Shown piece by piece: positions 10,696-17,600 of a stretch of DNA of 26,422 nucleotides. Numbering within the stretch: the stretch's first letter is position 1; every line of letters begins with the position of its first letter. A program made the position numbers and the translations under genes. Under the pieces are notes generated by a model. The model searched no databases. It had not been told where the DNA came from and worked only from the letters and a program-made list of their open reading frames with translations. Where the stretch lies: the IMG/VR virus record IMGVR_UViG_2541047936_000001; one strand, 5' to 3'. This stretch comes from a virus (lineage: Duplodnaviria > Heunggongvirae > Uroviricota > Caudoviricetes).

Positions 10696-10730
10696 CACAC
10701 CTCCAGCTTCATTGAAAAGGATTATTAGCT

Positions 10731-11630
10731 ATGATTGATCCACTTATTAGAAACTTACAGAGTGATATTGCACTACTCCAGCTTTATATCGCGCAACGCA
10801 AACAGGCAGGCTTTCATGACATGGAAAGAATAATTGAGTCATTGACCATCTTTATGTTTCGCGCGCTGAAAATGGGTGAACTGGTAAACATGAATCAGAT
10901 TAAAGTTAATTTTCCCGCCATTGATTTAGCTGATAATAAAAACATGATAGCAGTTCAAGTTACTACGAATGCAAGTCCAGCAAAAATTAAAAAAACTATC
11001 GAATCTTTTGAGAAAATAAATGAAATAGGAGAGAGTCTGAAAGATAAATACTCTACTTTATATATTTTTGGTTTTTGTAAAGCCTCAAGATACCTAACTC
11101 CAAGTTATTGTAAAATAATCGACCCCAGCTATTTCGTGAATGAACTTTGCGATAAAGCAGATGAAGATATGGTCCAGGATATGATTGACGCCATTCGACG
11201 CCATCATGATTATACATCATTACATCCATGGAGTGATAAAGATTCACTCGAAATTATACTCAATATTATTAATCGCAATGCAATAAAACATCGGATGAGT
11301 TGCGAAGGCAGTCTGTCTGATATGCTCACTGGTTTAAAAGAAATTAATGAAGTAATTACAAAAGGAACAATTCAACGTAAGCAACGTTCAAAATCGATAT
11401 CTGACTTCAAAGATCAAAGCATGGTGAAATTTATGAGAGGTGTAATGGATGATTTGTCTGTTATTCAAGCCATAGTGAACAAATCTAAAGTTAACCAAGG
11501 TGATATGGTTTATATAAGCCATGAAGATATGATTAATATTGATAAATTAAAAGCTAAAATAGCAAGTGATTCATCAGAGATTGCAAGGCTAAATAATATT
11601 GATATAACACTAAATGTTGTTGATTTATAA
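10731..11630 (+). CDS. Cargo protein (299 aa), soluble; N-terminal ~125 aa resemble a SMEK-type N-terminal domain of defence-associated proteins; C-terminal ~170 aa unassigned
   Basis: ORF in ~33% GC DNA; motifs NFPAIDLADNKNMIAVQVT...KIKKTIESF; AAGGA Shine-Dalgarno. Confidence 0.7.
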   Translation: MIDPLIRNLQSDIALLQLYIAQRKQAGFHDMERIIESLTIFMFRALKMGELVNMNQIKVNFPAIDLADNKNMIAVQVTTNASPAKIKKTIESFEKINEIGESLKDKYSTLYIFGFCKASRYLTPSYCKIIDPSYFVNELCDKADEDMVQDMIDAIRRHHDYTSLHPWSDKDSLEIILNIINRNAIKHRMSCEGSLSDMLTGLKEINEVITKGTIQRKQRSKSISDFKDQSMVKFMRGVMDDLSVIQAIVNKSKVNQGDMVYISHEDMINIDKLKAKIASDSSEIARLNNIDITLNVVDL

Positions 11631-11944
11631 TTGTCGATTTAGCAAAACAGAGAATGCTTTGAAAGTTTCACCGAGAAATATTTATTGTGAACCTCCTTAT
11701 TGTTTATCGACTTTTACTCTCCGCTCATTGCAGTACTGTCGGAGAAGGCTACTATGTACAAGAAGCAGCTAACATAAGCGAGCATCACTATTGATATTAG
11801 GAAGAGTATATAAAAACTTCATGCTGAACCTTACAAAAGTAGGTAAACCGGCAATGGCCTAAGTGGCAGGGTCATGTTGATCCGGCACTGCCGAGCTAAT
11901 AATTAACAAGCAAATCACTCTTTCTAATAATTTGTTGAAATAAA

Positions 11945-12604
11945 CTAAATATGTATATGTTTACCAACAACCACATATGAACTACCTGCTTTGCTCCATG
12001 ATTTTATTATTTCTAAATTATTATCTGAGCATATTTTACTTACAGTATCCACATCTAATAAACCATAGTAGAAAGCATTGCGAGAGTTTTGGTATATATA
12101 CCCATGCAAATGTTTAATACCGCTCTCGTACCTCTTGAAATAAGAACTTTTGTATTGATTGACAATCAGTGCTTCACCATCACTCTTTAATAATTCTCTA
12201 ATCGCACTGAGGACTTTGTGAATTGTGGATTCACATGGAATTGCGGAAAGCACGTTTGCGCAAAGTATGAAATCATAATGATTTGTTATTTTATCTATAT
12301 TTTCATAAGAAACAATATTAGCATTCTTATAGTTATTTATCACGTAATCTGGAATCGTGGTTTGTACACCTCTGATAATTTGCACTCTTTCTAGTTGTCT
12401 TCTGGAATCTAAAAATGTCACAGTTTCAAATTTATTTACTAATTGTTCTGAATATCTAAGTTTTCCACATCCAAAATCAAGGGCATTGCCATTTTTATTA
12501 GTGCTTTCAATCTGTTTACAGAGATAGTTAGATGGCATAGTGTGCGGTTTCGCTGCATTTTCTGAACGTATGTTTATTCCATTTATTTTGTAATTCAAAA
12601 TCAA
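11945..12604 (-). CDS. Small class I SAM-dependent methyltransferase (TehB/TPMT-like fold); true start probably the second TTG (12598)
   Basis: Motif I ALDFGCGKL, acidic TFLD, YDFILCANVLSAIP, KSDGEALIV; no DPPY/NPPY DNA-MTase motif seen; GAGG 6 nt before second TTG. Confidence 0.75.
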   Translation of the reverse strand: MILNYKINGINIRSENAAKPHTMPSNYLCKQIESTNKNGNALDFGCGKLRYSEQLVNKFETVTFLDSRRQLERVQIIRGVQTTIPDYVINNYKNANIVSYENIDKITNHYDFILCANVLSAIPCESTIHKVLSAIRELLKSDGEALIVNQYKSSYFKRYESGIKHLHGYIYQNSRNAFYYGLLDVDTVSKICSDNNLEIIKSWSKAGSSYVVVGKHIHI

Positions 12605-12610
12605 CCTCGT

Positions 12611-13318
12611 TTAAAAAATATTGTTATTGTTAAAGAATTCTTTTATTTTGCTATCAGGTATTTGTCTTACTTGGCTTTCTGTTCTTGGTTTAACTGATGC
12701 TATGAAAATAAGGAAGTCAAATGCGACAAGAGAAATAATCCACAACCAAAGATTAATTAAAGAGCCAGTAACAGAGAATATATTTGTTAATTTGGCGATA
12801 CTTATTATTAAAATAGTAACAAATGCGATTACTGTATGTTCAAAGAAAACCCAAAAGTAATAAACTTTGTTCCAGAAAAGTTCAACGTAATGTTTGTCTT
12901 TTAACTCTTTAACTTCTGGGTAATACAGTTTACTCATTACCTTGTGAGATTCATCAGTAGTTAATTTTCTCGTAACGCCTGCAATTTTTGCTAATGGTTT
13001 AATAATTAAATGACTATCCCACATCTTCCTTATTCCAATAATTTTTGCTACATTATTATGTAGATCTAAAGCTCCACTAATTACTGACCAAAAAACTGAA
13101 GATGCAATTGGTAATATGCCAAAGGTTAATATCCATTTAATAAATTCCTCGTAGTCTTTAACGGGGGGGATATACTTGGCATTAATGCCAACCAATGGCA
13201 TGTAGCCATAAATGACTAATGATAGGTAAAATATAAATGTAGTAATAAAAGTCGCCTTATGGAGCATAGGCAACATTTCATTATAACTCTTTGGTGGTTC
13301 TAACATTTTACTCTCCAA
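12611..13318 (-). CDS. Integral membrane protein (235 aa, about four predicted TM helices), first gene of the operon with the methyltransferase
   Basis: Hydrophobic stretches TFITTFIFYLSLVIYGYMPLVGI, WILTFGILPIASSVFWSVISGAL, YYFWVFFEHTVIAFVTILIISIA, LINLWLWIISLVAFDFLIFIASV. Confidence 0.7.
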   Translation of the reverse strand: MESKMLEPPKSYNEMLPMLHKATFITTFIFYLSLVIYGYMPLVGINAKYIPPVKDYEEFIKWILTFGILPIASSVFWSVISGALDLHNNVAKIIGIRKMWDSHLIIKPLAKIAGVTRKLTTDESHKVMSKLYYPEVKELKDKHYVELFWNKVYYFWVFFEHTVIAFVTILIISIAKLTNIFSVTGSLINLWLWIISLVAFDFLIFIASVKPRTESQVRQIPDSKIKEFFNNNNIF

Positions 13319-13747
13319 ACACTCAAAAAAAAGCTAATCTTCTATAATAACGAAATTCAGCTGGCACAATTAAAGATTAATTGCCACCAATTTCTTGATT
13401 TTATAATTTTATCTAAATGTTTTTGATTAATCTAGTCCTAAAAGAAACCTACTGCATAAATATTTATGCTGATGACCCACTCCCTGTTCGTTAACACATA
13501 GCAACGTTAGTAATGCATCCTAAGTGATCAATATTTTTGCTAGCTTCATCTGCTCGCTCAAAGGGAACTATAATGTTGGCTTGCGTGTGACTTGGCATGT
13601 TTAAAGAAGTGCTGGTGGTGACTGGTTGCTGTTTTCCATTTCCACAGAACAAAATCATAGAAACTATACCCAGTAGTTGTATTGAATCACTGACGAGACA
13701 GCCTCATATTTATCAGGACTGGTGTACGTCCAATACAGGAGGTTGTG

Positions 13748-13837
13748 GTGCTGGTTCTCAAATGTGCGCTGGCTATTGCTGCTGTAATGGCAATTTATTG
13801 TCTTGCTGTTGTTCTTATGGATCACCTTTCTGATTGA
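13748..13837 (+). CDS. Candidate small hydrophobic peptide (29 aa: MLVLKCALAIAAVMAIYCLAVVLMDHLSD), GTG start with strong Shine-Dalgarno
   Basis: AGGAGG at 13737-13742, 5-nt spacer, GTG 13748; +1 frame relative to the 78-aa Cys-rich ORF. Confidence 0.35.
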   Translation: MLVLKCALAIAAVMAIYCLAVVLMDHLSD

Positions 13838-14048
13838 TTTCATATTGGCGAGGTAACGGTAGTTAAGTAGAATTGCTGCGGGTGCTTGAGGCTATCTGCC
13901 TCGGGCATCAACACCAAAGGCAGATAGAGAAAAGCCCCAGTTAACATTACGCGTCCGGCAAGACGCTTAACATTAATCTGAGGCCATATCTATGCTCTAC
14001 ACACGTAGGTTAGCCTCTTACGTGCCGAAAGGCAAGGAGAAGCAGGCT

Positions 14049-14204
14049 ATGAAGCAGCAAAAGGCGATGTTAATCGCCCTGATCGTCATCTGTTTAACCG
14101 TCATAGTGACGGCACTGGTAACGAGGAAAGACCTCTGCGAGGTACGAATCCGAACCGGCCAGACGGAGGTCGCTGTCTTCACAGCTTACGAATCTGAGGA
14201 GTAA
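14049..14204 (+). CDS. hokD: Hok-family type I toxin (51 aa), HokD/RelF-like
   Basis: MKQQKAMLIALIVICLTVIVTALVTRKDLCEVRIRTGQTEVAVFTAYESEE; AGGAGA Shine-Dalgarno at 14035-14040. Confidence 0.85.
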   Translation: MKQQKAMLIALIVICLTVIVTALVTRKDLCEVRIRTGQTEVAVFTAYESEE

Positions 14205-14274
14205 GAGACCCGGCGGGGGAGAAATCCCTCGCCACCTCTGATGTGTCAGGCATTCTCAACGCACCCGCATTTAA

Positions 14275-14299
14275 CCCGCTTCGGCGGGTTTTTGTTTTT
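14275..14299 (+). terminator. Rho-independent terminator after hok (CCCGCTTCGGCGGG + U-tract)
   Basis: Hairpin and T-run read directly. Confidence 0.6.
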
Positions 14300-14421
14300 A
14301 TTTTCAACGCGTTTGAAGTTCTGGGCGGTGCCGGAATAGAATCAAAAATACTTAAGTAGCGCGCAGGGATAAGAGGGATGGACCCCGAACAGGGGAGTGC
14401 TATTTATCTGGAAGGATTCTG

Positions 14422-14685
14422 TTGATGAAAATCGAAGAATTACGTGAAATTTTTACTGAAGATGGCCTCTATACTGTGCGCGTTGAGAATGGTGCTATTG
14501 TCAGTCACTGCCGTATTAAATGTTTACAATCTAAACAAAGGAAGAGTGGTGCTGCGTTAATTTATTTTGTGGATGAACTTGTGACAGATGGTTTTATTTT
14601 GCGTGAAAATGAATTTGTCACATCATTGCAGTCTCTGAAAGAAGCTGGGCTTAAGGCTGGTTTTTCTGCTTTTGAAGATGAGTAA
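14422..14685 (+). CDS. Hypothetical nin-region protein (87 aa)
   Basis: ORF track only. Confidence 0.45.
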   Translation: MMKIEELREIFTEDGLYTVRVENGAIVSHCRIKCLQSKQRKSGAALIYFVDELVTDGFILRENEFVTSLQSLKEAGLKAGFSAFEDE

Positions 14686-17350: not shown

Positions 17351-17426
17351 GGCCCTTTAGCTCAGTGGTGAGAGCGAGCGACTCATAATCGCCAGGCCGC
17401 TGGTTCAAATCCAGCAAGGGCCACCA
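17351..17426 (+). tRNA. tRNA with CAU anticodon (Ile2/ileZ-like, or Met)
   Basis: GGCCCTTTAGCTCAGTGGTGAGAGC...anticodon loop CUCAUAA...TTCAAATCC...CCA. Confidence 0.8.
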
Positions 17427-17433
17427 TCACATA

Positions 17434-17510
17434 CCGCCATTAGCTCATCGGGATAGAACGCCAGCCTTCGAAGCTGGTTTCGCGGGGTTCGAGTCTCCGA
17501 TGGCGGTCCA
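17434..17510 (+). tRNA. tRNA-Arg, anticodon UCG
   Basis: Cloverleaf with anticodon loop CUUCGAA; acceptor CCGCCAT/ATGGCGG; CCA end. Confidence 0.75.
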
Positions 17511-17523
17511 TTATCGGTATTCT

Positions 17524-17600
17524 GCGTTTTTAGCTCAGCCGGACAGAGCAATTGCCTTCTAAGCAATCGGTCACTGGTTCGAACCCAGTACAACGCACCA
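17524..17600 (+). tRNA. tRNA-Arg, anticodon UCU
   Basis: Cloverleaf with anticodon loop CUUCUAA; CCA end. Confidence 0.75.

What the first reader, a model, noticed from the sequence alone, without database searches (positions are those of the whole stretch)
13850..14300. hokD-like type I toxin locus without adjacent relBE
A 51-aa Hok-family toxin with its own Shine-Dalgarno and a downstream terminator is present. An in-frame upstream ATG at 13992 would give a 70-aa extended product with no intervening stop. The usual mok-like leader and sok-like antisense control elements cannot be resolved by eye, so whether the locus is active is open.
Basis: partly seen in the sequence, partly recalled or inferred. 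Interest (0 to 1): 0.35.

Follow-up and report, generated by a model that had tools for sequence, protein, structure and literature searches.

The report
Intact prophage hok/mok/sok toxin cassette
This is an ordinary, complete copy of the well-known Hok/Sok RNA-controlled toxin module on a lambda-like E. coli prophage; the puzzling 70-codon frame is its known leader gene mok, and the "missing" relBE genes are a peculiarity of strain K-12.

Summary
A 51-aa Hok toxin gene (14049-14204, Pfam HOK_GEF E=1e-23) has its own SD, a terminator (14273-14299) and an in-frame ATG at 13992 giving 70 aa.

- a hok promoter with +1 near 13880;
- a 5' leader matching Rfam RF01794 (114 bits, cutoff 59);
- the tac, ucb, mok-SD, dcb and fbi boxes, whose predicted pairings switch as in plasmid R1;
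- an antisense Sok gene (about 14000 to 13930, minus strand) with a promoter identical to that of the annotated sokW.

The 70-aa frame is mok. It aligns with annotated mokW (70 aa, phage VT2-Sakai, 95% nt identity) and K-12 mokC, both in frame with hok.

relBE is absent from the window. K-12 hokD shares only 14 nt upstream of the ATG, so K-12 is the rearranged form, as already published.

The leader occurs in 4214 of 5426 complete E. coli genomes. RefSeq names the identical gene hokD.

Verdict: already known, structurally intact. Activity is untested. Low interest.

The parts
13845..13873 (+). hok promoter: -35 TTGGCG (13845-13850), 17-nt spacer, -10 TAGAAT (13868-13873)
   Evidence: Found by the promoter scan. 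The -10 box aligns with TATAAT of hokC, TAGGAT of hokB and TATGAT of R1.
13880..14299 (+). Full-length hok mRNA, about 420 nt, from the predicted +1 G to the terminator T-run
   Evidence: The Rfam model starts at 13880. The 5' end GGGTGCTTGAGG is conserved in 8 loci. MFE is -173.2 kcal/mol, z=-6.1 against shuffles.
13880..13891 (+). tac (translational activator) element, the 5' end of the mRNA
   Evidence: It pairs with fbi in the full-length fold and with ucb in the 3'-truncated fold.
13930..13938 (+). ucb (upstream complementary box, anti-SD), AAAAGCCCC
   Evidence: It pairs with the mok SD in the full-length fold and with tac in the truncated fold. The pair 13886:13933 shows a compensatory U-A to C-G change in hokB.
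13939..13979 (+). Long hairpin of the leader, which on the other strand is the Sok terminator hairpin. It includes an 18-nt palindromic insertion (13949-13966) relative to hokC, hokB and R1.
   Evidence: Alignments and the fold of the antisense strand.
13980..14017 (+). Sok-target hairpin: mok SD GAGG (13980-13983) paired with dcb GCCUC (14013-14017), loop 13995-14003
   Evidence: Fold of 13976-14022. The same hairpin forms in VT2-Sakai, HannyBb and R1, and it is in the Rfam consensus structure.
13992..14204 (+). mok reading frame, 70 aa, in frame with hok and sharing its stop codon
   Evidence: ORF list. It aligns with annotated mokC and mokW. The start lies 57 nt before the hok ATG, as in 4 other loci.
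14034..14039 (+). hok Shine-Dalgarno, AAGGAG
   Evidence: Sequence. AAGGAGAA is invariant in all aligned loci.
14049..14204 (+). hok toxin gene, 51 aa
   Evidence: Pfam HOK_GEF E=1.2e-23. RefSeq WP_000813255.1 'toxin HokD' in the identical locus.
14007..14035 (-). Predicted Sok promoter: -35 TTGCCT (14035-14030), 17-nt spacer, -10 TAACCT (14012-14007)
   Evidence: The pattern is identical in VT2-Sakai and HannyBb. R1 has TTGCGC-17-TATCCT and hokB has TTGCCG-17-TAAGAT at the aligned place. It fell below the generic scan threshold.
13930..14000 (-). Predicted Sok antisense RNA. The 5' end is near 14000. The 3' end is at 13930 by transfer of sokW, or 13924 by transfer of sokC and sokB. It covers the mok SD and start codon.
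   Evidence: Transfer of annotated sokC and sokB and sokW. The fold gives a single-stranded 5' tail, a long hairpin and a U-rich tail, -31.8 kcal/mol, z=-4.65.
14212..14233 (+). 3' stem-loop expected to end the processed (truncated) hok mRNA
   Evidence: Present in every fold. The role is inferred from the R1 model (PMC9841398).
14254..14266 (+). fbi (fold-back inhibition) element, UCUCAACGCACCC
   Evidence: It pairs with 13880-13891 in the MFE. The duplex is -19.8 kcal/mol, reached by 34 of 2000 shuffles. The equivalent site exists in 6 other loci.
14273..14299 (+). Intrinsic terminator of the hok mRNA
   Evidence: Terminator scan: 7-bp stem, 5 G-C pairs, T-run.

Best explanation
The locus is a structurally complete hok/mok/sok type I toxin-antitoxin cassette of the hokD/hokW type. 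It sits in the early-right (nin-like) region of a Qin-like lambdoid prophage of E. coli.

Inferred mechanism, following the plasmid R1 paradigm:
1. A constitutive promoter makes a stable mRNA of about 420 nt.
2. Its 5' end (tac) pairs with a 3' box (fbi), and the ucb box sequesters the mok ribosome-binding site, so the full-length RNA is neither translated nor bound by Sok.
3. Slow 3' trimming removes fbi. tac then pairs with ucb, and the mok SD moves into the target hairpin with dcb.
4. The unstable 71-77-nt antisense Sok RNA pairs across the mok SD and start codon. This blocks mok translation, and hence the coupled hok translation, and triggers cleavage of the duplex.
5. If Sok synthesis stops (loss of the element, or transcription shut-off), mok and hok are translated and the 51-aa membrane peptide kills or arrests the cell.

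Shown here: the presence, positions and complementarities of all these elements, and homology to annotated loci. Inferred only: transcription, 3' processing, Sok action, toxicity and the biological role.
For: Toxin. Pfam HOK_GEF E=1.2e-23. The peptide is 50/51 identical to K-12 HokD. RefSeq names the identical gene hokD.

Leader. Rfam RF01794 scores 114 bits against a cutoff of 59, E=1.5e-25, covering the model end to end.

mok. The ATG at 13992 aligns with annotated mokC and mokW and with the R1 mok ATG, and is preceded by GAGG.

Sok. The annotated sokC, sokB and sokW all map to 14000 down to 13924/13930 on the minus strand. The promoter TTGCCT-17-TAACCT is identical to that of sokW and one base from R1's -10 box. 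The predicted RNA folds as a tail, a hairpin and a U-tract.

Conformational switch. In the full-length fold tac pairs with fbi and ucb pairs with the mok SD. In folds cut at 14240 or 14245 tac pairs with ucb. A metastable 5' hairpin appears in the fold cut at 14250.

Covariation. In hokB the tac change U to C is matched by A to G in both ucb and fbi.

Conservation. Phage VT2-Sakai is 94.9% identical and has all three genes annotated. The leader is in 4214 of 5426 E. coli genomes.

Synteny. The order dicB, dicA, dicC ... hokD, rem-like, DUF968, rusA, Q matches K-12 Qin apart from relBE.

The mechanism itself comes from PMC9841398.
Against: - No expression or toxicity data exist for this locus.
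- The predicted Sok -10 box matches the consensus at only 3 of 6 positions, and the generic scan missed it.
- The loop of the Sok-target hairpin (CUCUACACA) lacks the YUNR U-turn motif that VT2-Sakai, HannyBb and R1 have at that place. That motif was shown to be decisive for fast Sok pairing in R1 (PMC6562991).
- Intact chromosomal hokA, hokB and hokC loci did not give post-segregational killing or rifampicin activation (Pedersen and Gerdes 1999, as summarised in bioRxiv 10.1101/2025.08.07.668861).
- MFE folds of truncated RNAs pair the freed mok SD with different partners depending on the 3' end chosen.
- The tac/fbi duplex alone is only modestly better than shuffles, about 2%.
Confidence: 0.88

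Rival explanations
1. The cassette is a structurally intact but physiologically silent remnant. It is transcribed little or not at all, or is never activated, like the chromosomal hok loci reported not to mediate killing.
For: Literature summarised in bioRxiv 10.1101/2025.08.07.668861: intact hokA, hokB and hokC loci gave no post-segregational killing and no rifampicin activation. The Sok -10 box is weak. The YUNR motif is absent from the target loop. HokD has Tyr rather than Cys at the second conserved cysteine position and depends on low-level TadA editing, 6% in K-12 (PMC12214031).
Against: No disabling mutation was found in any element. The 601-nt locus is 100% identical in 12 genomes, and the exact target-hairpin allele is in 523 records. 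The cassette is retained on inducible or isolated phages. Of 45 Hok peptides tested on overexpression, 42 were toxic whatever their location.
Confidence: 0.3
2. The 70-aa product is the only real gene: one longer toxin, as some phage records annotate ('MokW-like host killing protein'). On this reading there is no separate initiation at 14049.
For: The frame is open from 13992 with a GAGG SD. HannyBb and PPompW records annotate only the 213-nt CDS.
Against: AAGGAG lies 9 nt before the ATG at 14049 and is invariant across all loci. These include R1, hokB and P1-like loci, where mok is out of frame and cannot yield Hok. The 19-aa extension diverges (MLYTRRLASYVPKGKEKQA against MLVTYRLPLTDRKVKEKQA) while Hok is nearly invariant. 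PGAP and the VT2-Sakai record call the 51-aa gene.
Confidence: 0.07
3. hok here is expressed as the distal gene of a relBE-type operon, as relF is in K-12.
For: K-12 hokD is cotranscribed with relBE (PMC5120126).
Against: No relB or relE homologue exists anywhere in the window. The locus has its own promoter and full leader. K-12 shares only 14 nt upstream of the ATG.
Confidence: 0.01

Closest known systems
hokW/mokW/sokW of Stx2 phages VT2-Sakai (AP000422.1) and 933W
   Same: It is 94.9% nt identical over window 13861-14268. It has the same 169-nt leader with the extended hairpin, the same in-frame 70-aa mok, a 51-aa Hok and an identical predicted Sok promoter. All three genes are annotated in the record.
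   Different: It sits at a different place in the phage: near the late or right end in VT2-Sakai, and between the replication and Q modules here. The Hok C-terminus differs (VDYESEK against TAYESEE). The target loop is CUGAACA with a YUNR motif, against CUCUACACA here.
E. coli K-12 hokD (relF) in the Qin prophage
   Same: The protein is 98% identical, and the 3' UTR, fbi, terminator and downstream rem-like gene are near-identical. The prophage neighbourhood is the same (dicB, dicA, dicC ... rem, ydfU, Q).
   Different: K-12 keeps only 14 nt upstream of the ATG. Its promoter, tac, ucb, mok start, Sok target and Sok gene are replaced by relBE. The literature describes the K-12 form as the rearranged one (PMC6379469, PMC12214031).
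E. coli K-12 hokC (gef)/mokC/sokC
   Same: mok is in frame (69 aa), starts at the same aligned ATG and shares the hok stop codon. sokC maps to the same interval. The tac, ucb, dcb and SD boxes are conserved.
   Different: The locus is chromosomal, not on a prophage. IS186 sits just downstream in K-12 and removes the 3' region. It lacks the 18-nt hairpin extension.
hok/mok/sok (parB) of plasmid R1, the experimental paradigm
   Same: All named elements lie in the same order, with the same alternative pairings, and the Sok promoter is at the aligned position (TTGCGC-17-TATCCT).
   Different: The Hok protein is diverged and the Hok peptide is 52 aa. mok is out of frame (start 58 nt before the hok ATG, stop 4 nt before the hok stop). 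The first leader hairpin is longer. It is plasmid-borne with demonstrated post-segregational killing.

Membership tests
[quoted passage not shown] | Small hydrophobic Hok/Gef-family toxin peptide | tested here: met
   PF01848 E=1.2e-23, 82.9 bits against a cutoff of 22, covering the profile at 1-42/42. 98% identical to K-12 HokD.
[quoted passage not shown] | Overlapping upstream mok reading frame with its own SD, starting about 57-58 nt before hok | tested here: met
   GAGG at 13980-13983 and ATG at 13992, giving 70 aa. It aligns with annotated mokC, mokW and the R1 mok start.
[quoted passage not shown] | Structured hok mRNA leader (tac stem, target hairpin) matching the family covariance model | tested here: met
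   RF01794 scores 114 bits against a gathering score of 59, covering the model at 1-157. RNAalifold on 8 leaders recovers the tac/ucb stem with 3 compensatory pairs.
[quoted passage not shown] | Long-range 5' tac / 3' fbi pairing that closes the full-length mRNA, with ucb sequestering the mok SD | tested here: met
   In the MFE of 13880-14296, 13880-13891 pairs with 14254-14266 and 13934-13938 pairs with 13980-13984. z=-6.1. The duplex control reached the observed energy in 34 of 2000 shuffles. hokB shows coupled covariation.
[quoted passage not shown] | Refolding after 3' truncation: tac pairs with ucb, and the mok SD pairs with dcb in the target hairpin | tested here: met
   tac pairs with ucb in folds ending at 14240 and 14245. 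The SD/dcb hairpin forms in the isolated segment and in the Rfam structure. In whole-RNA MFEs the freed SD finds other partners, so this is a prediction only.
[quoted passage not shown] | Cis-encoded antisense Sok gene with promoter and terminator, overlapping the mok translation-initiation region | tested here: met
   Annotation transfer from sokC, sokB and sokW gives 14000 down to 13924/13930. The promoter is identical to that of the sokW locus. A hairpin plus U-tract is predicted. This is sequence-level evidence only.
[quoted passage not shown] | Accessory, not defining: YUNR U-turn motif in the target loop for fast Sok binding | tested here: not met
   The loop CUCUACACA has no YUNR. VT2-Sakai has CUGA, and HannyBb and R1 have CUAG. 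This allele is in 523 E. coli records. The motif's role is taken from PMC6562991.
[quoted passage not shown] | Sok RNA is expressed and unstable, hok mRNA is stable and 3'-processed, and Hok is toxic | not testable with these tools
   Needs Northern blots or RNA-seq, rifampicin chase and induction assays.
K-12-type relBEF operon context of hokD | relB and relE immediately upstream of hokD, replacing the leader | tested here: not met
   tblastn with RelB and RelE gives a best E of 0.72 anywhere in the window. Homology to K-12 breaks 14 nt before the ATG.

The most novel reading that the evidence does not exclude
This allele may behave differently from the R1 paradigm. It combines a target loop without the YUNR U-turn, a 3/6 Sok -10 box and an 18-nt extension of the Sok terminator hairpin. 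Together these could give slower or weaker Sok control and therefore a lower threshold for Hok release, for example on phage-induced transcription shut-off.

Separately, the conserved unannotated 29-aa hydrophobic ORF just upstream (13748-13837) might be a second small membrane peptide linked to the cassette.
Probability: 0.1. Interest if true: 0.35.

Novelty: already known. Interest (0 to 1): 0.08.

Why it matters
It matters little for discovery. The locus belongs to one of the best-studied RNA-regulated toxin systems. A 95%-identical copy has been annotated with all three genes (mokW, hokW, sokW) in the VT2-Sakai record, and the point that K-12 hokD is a relBE-truncated form of a roughly 70-codon ancestral frame is published.

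The practical value is for annotation. RefSeq annotates only the 51-aa hokD here, leaving mok and Sok unannotated (no feature under the leader in any listed row). The Rfam 'sok' hit lies on the sense strand and could mislead automatic pipelines. This intact prophage version would be a better substrate than K-12 hokD for testing whether hokD-type loci are active.

Tried and rejected
- **relBE elsewhere in the window.** Rejected: tblastn gives only noise.
- **The Rfam 'sok' hit as the antisense gene itself.** Rejected. The hit is on the + strand and its consensus ends in the hok SD and AUG, so the model describes the hok leader. The real Sok lies opposite.
- **A generic sigma-70 scan for the Sok promoter.** It found nothing on the minus strand. 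The promoter was placed only by alignment with R1, hokB and hokW.
- **The 70-aa frame as a novel extended toxin.** Rejected in favour of mok.
- **The 18-nt hairpin insertion as a private mutation.** Rejected. It is shared by hokW, HannyBb and P1-like loci, and 169-nt full-length matches occur in most E. coli genomes.
- **The non-YUNR loop as a sporadic lesion.** Rejected. The exact allele is in 523 records.
- **Pfam and NCBIfam searches of the flanking small ORFs** (78-aa Cys-rich, 30-aa hydrophobic, 87-aa rem-like). All gave nothing.
- **K-12 hokE.** It could not be added to the leader alignment because my pattern for the 5' end did not match it.
- **Large protein-database, structure-prediction and metagenome tools.** Not used, because the identity was settled without them.

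Full report
**1. Observation**

The sequence at 13850-14300 is as described.
- An ORF runs from ATG 13992 to the stop at 14204 (70 aa).
- An internal ATG at 14049 gives a 51-aa peptide.
- That peptide matches Pfam HOK_GEF over the whole profile (E=1.2e-23) and is 50/51 identical to K-12 HokD.
- AAGGAG lies at 14034-14039, ending 9 nt before the ATG.
- An intrinsic terminator lies at 14273-14299.
- No RelB or RelE homologue is encoded anywhere in the window.

**2. Context**

The window is an E. coli lambdoid prophage. An identical 601-nt locus occurs in 12 complete genomes, where RefSeq annotates 'type I toxin-antitoxin system toxin HokD'.

In strain C7 the gene order is tRNA-Ser, int, exo, dicB, dicA, dicC, replication genes, a SMEK / methyltransferase / membrane-protein cluster, hokD, two small genes, DUF968, rusA, Q, three tRNAs, then lysis and terminase genes.

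K-12 Qin has the same backbone: dicB ... dicA dicC ... relB relE hokD rem ydfU Q. The window's 87-aa ORF at 14422-14685 is 72% identical to Rem. The locus therefore occupies the Qin hokD position.

**3. The control elements are present**

(a) *Promoter.* TTGGCG-17-TAGAAT at 13845-13873 places +1 at about 13880. That is the first base of the Rfam RF01794 match (13880-14054, 114 bits against a gathering score of 59, E=1.5e-25). The family is named 'sok', but the hit is on the + strand and its consensus ends with the hok SD and AUG. The model therefore describes the hok mRNA leader, not the antisense RNA.

(b) *Alignment with reference loci.* I aligned the window with K-12 hokC, K-12 hokB and an R1-type hok/sok. 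My remembered R1 sequence matched many IncF plasmids at 100%. The alignment shows conserved blocks:
- the 5' end GGGTGCTTGAGG (tac);
- AAAAGCCCC (ucb);
- GAGGCC followed by ATG (mok SD and start);
- TAGCCTCTTAC (dcb);
- CAAGGAGAA followed by ATG (hok SD and start).

(c) *mok.* The ATG at 13992 falls exactly on the annotated start of K-12 mokC. mokC shares the hokC stop codon, so it is in frame (69 aa). The same ATG also aligns with the R1 mok ATG.

Phage VT2-Sakai is 94.9% identical over window 13861-14268. Its record annotates mokW (213 nt, 70 aa, in frame), hokW (51 aa) and sokW (71 nt, antisense). Transferred to the window, these are 13992-14204, 14049-14204 and 13930-14000 (minus strand).

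Across ten loci the mok start is of two kinds:
- 57 nt before the hok ATG, in frame: the window, VT2-Sakai, HannyBb, PPompW and hokC;
- 58 nt before, out of frame: R1, hokB, and the P1-like and IncY loci.

The 19-residue extension varies between loci while Hok hardly does. This fits a role for the act of translation rather than for the peptide.

(d) *Sok.* The annotated sokC and sokB both map to 14000 down to 13924, and sokW maps to 14000 down to 13930.
- Upstream on the minus strand lies TTGCCT (14035-14030), a 17-nt spacer and TAACCT (14012-14007).
- This pattern is identical in VT2-Sakai and HannyBb. It is homologous to R1's TTGCGC-17-TATCCT and hokB's TTGCCG-17-TAAGAT.
- The predicted RNA has a free 5' tail, a long hairpin and a U-rich 3' tail (-31.8 kcal/mol, z=-4.65).
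- It is complementary to the mok SD and start codon.

(e) *Conformational switch.* Three folds reproduce the R1 scheme described in PMC9841398.
- Full-length RNA (13880-14296): MFE -173.2 kcal/mol, z=-6.1. tac 13880-13891 pairs with fbi 14254-14266, and ucb 13934-13938 pairs with the mok SD 13980-13984.
- RNA cut at 14240 or 14245, just after the 3' stem-loop 14212-14233: tac pairs with ucb instead.
- RNA cut at 14250: the metastable 5' hairpin (13881-13892 with 13898-13909) appears.

The isolated segment 13976-14022 forms the SD/dcb target hairpin, as do its counterparts in VT2-Sakai, HannyBb and R1.

The tac/fbi duplex (-19.8 kcal/mol) is reached by 34 of 2000 shuffled 5' ends, so it is modest alone. 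An equivalent site exists in six other loci. In hokB the tac change U7 to C is matched by A to G in both ucb and fbi.

**4. Relation to K-12 hokD**

The window and K-12 are near-identical from 14035 onward, that is 14 nt before the ATG, through hok, fbi, the terminator and into rem. Upstream of 14035 K-12 continues into relE.

K-12 therefore lacks the hok promoter, tac, ucb, the mok start, the Sok target and the Sok gene. The literature states this. [quoted passage not shown] K-12 hok loci other than hokB are described as inactivated by insertion elements or genomic rearrangement (PMC12214031). In K-12, hokD is cotranscribed with relBE (PMC5120126).

'Without relBE' is thus the unrearranged state, not an anomaly.

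**5. Frequency**

- The 169-nt leader is found at 80% coverage or more in 4214 of 5426 complete E. coli genomes, with a median of two places per genome.
- 102 phage records carry the cassette, including Stx phages, P1-like phages and lambdoid isolates.
- hok genes are reported as enriched in prophages (bioRxiv 10.1101/2025.08.07.668861).
- The cassette is modular. Homology to VT2-Sakai and PPompW begins at the promoter and ends near the terminator, in different neighbourhoods.

**6. What remains open**

Activity is untested. Points of caution:
- the weak Sok -10 box (3/6);
- the loop of the target hairpin, CUCUACACA, which lacks the YUNR U-turn present in VT2-Sakai (CUGA), HannyBb (CUAG) and R1 (CUAG). 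That motif was shown to be decisive for rapid Sok pairing in R1 (PMC6562991);
- the report that intact chromosomal hokA, hokB and hokC loci gave no post-segregational killing;
- Tyr47 (UAC-G at 14187-14190) at the second conserved Cys position, which in K-12 hokD is edited by TadA in only 6% of transcripts.

Against decay: the non-YUNR allele is exact in 523 records, and no element is disrupted.

**7. Verdict**

This is a canonical, complete hokD/hokW-type hok/mok/sok cassette on a Qin-like prophage. It is already known, and interest is low.

Noticed in passing
window 13748-13837 (+), SD AGGAGG at 13738-13743: An unannotated 29-aa hydrophobic ORF (MLVLKCALAIAAVMAIYCLAVVLMDHLSD) ends 8 nt before the hok -35 box. 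It is conserved with mostly conservative changes in phages HannyBb, Tritos, Evi and mEp460 (86-96% aa identity) and absent upstream of hokW and PPompW hok. It has no Pfam or NCBIfam match. It could be a small membrane protein or a chance frame; HannyBb annotates ORFs on the opposite strand instead.
   Followed up: partly
window 13880-14054 (+): Rfam RF01794, named 'sok antitoxin', matches the sense strand of hok, and its consensus includes the hok SD and AUG. The hit marks the hok leader, and the real Sok gene is on the opposite strand (14000 down to about 13930). Automatic annotation from this hit would place Sok on the wrong strand.
   Followed up: yes
window 13995-14003 (+): The loop of the Sok-target hairpin is CUCUACACA, with no YUNR U-turn motif. 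VT2-Sakai, HannyBb and R1 have CUGA or CUAG at that place. The exact 61-nt allele occurs in 523 E. coli records, so it is a common variant rather than a lesion.
   Followed up: partly
window 13949-13966: An 18-nt palindromic insertion (ACGCGTCCGGCAAGACGC) relative to hokC, hokB and R1 adds a G+C-rich tip to the leader hairpin, which is also the Sok terminator hairpin. It is shared by hokW, HannyBb and P1-like loci and absent in PPompW.
   Followed up: partly
window 14187-14190 (+): Tyr47 of Hok is encoded as UAC followed by G, within UUACGAA. This is the TadA A-to-I editing motif reported to recode Tyr to Cys in hokB, hokC, hokD and hokE mRNAs (PMC12214031).
   Followed up: partly
window about 1000-3500 (ALIL pseudoknot at 2213-2329, +): An IS3-family frameshift pseudoknot hit (121.5 bits). 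The window has about 1.3 kb more than strain C7 between tRNA-Ser and hokD, which suggests an IS3-family insertion in or near the prophage integrase or exonuclease end.
   Followed up: no
window 892-981 (+); 6749-6800 (-); 17351-17600 (+); 18371-18543 (+): Other RNA genes in the window: tRNA-Ser(CGA) next to the integrase, likely the attachment site; DicF sRNA; a three-tRNA cluster downstream of Q; and an STnc100 match. ARAGORN calls the first tRNA of the cluster Met(CAT), while RefSeq calls it Ile in the equivalent locus.
   Followed up: no
window about 10700-13320: Between the replication genes and hok lies a cluster annotated in strain C7 as a SMEK-domain protein, a class I SAM-dependent methyltransferase and a 231-235-aa multi-pass membrane protein with no family match. 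It looks like a moron or defence-type insertion and was not examined.
   Followed up: no
window 13597-13833 (+): A 78-aa cysteine-rich ORF overlaps the 29-aa ORF in another frame. It has no family match and is not annotated in RefSeq, so it is probably spurious.
   Followed up: no
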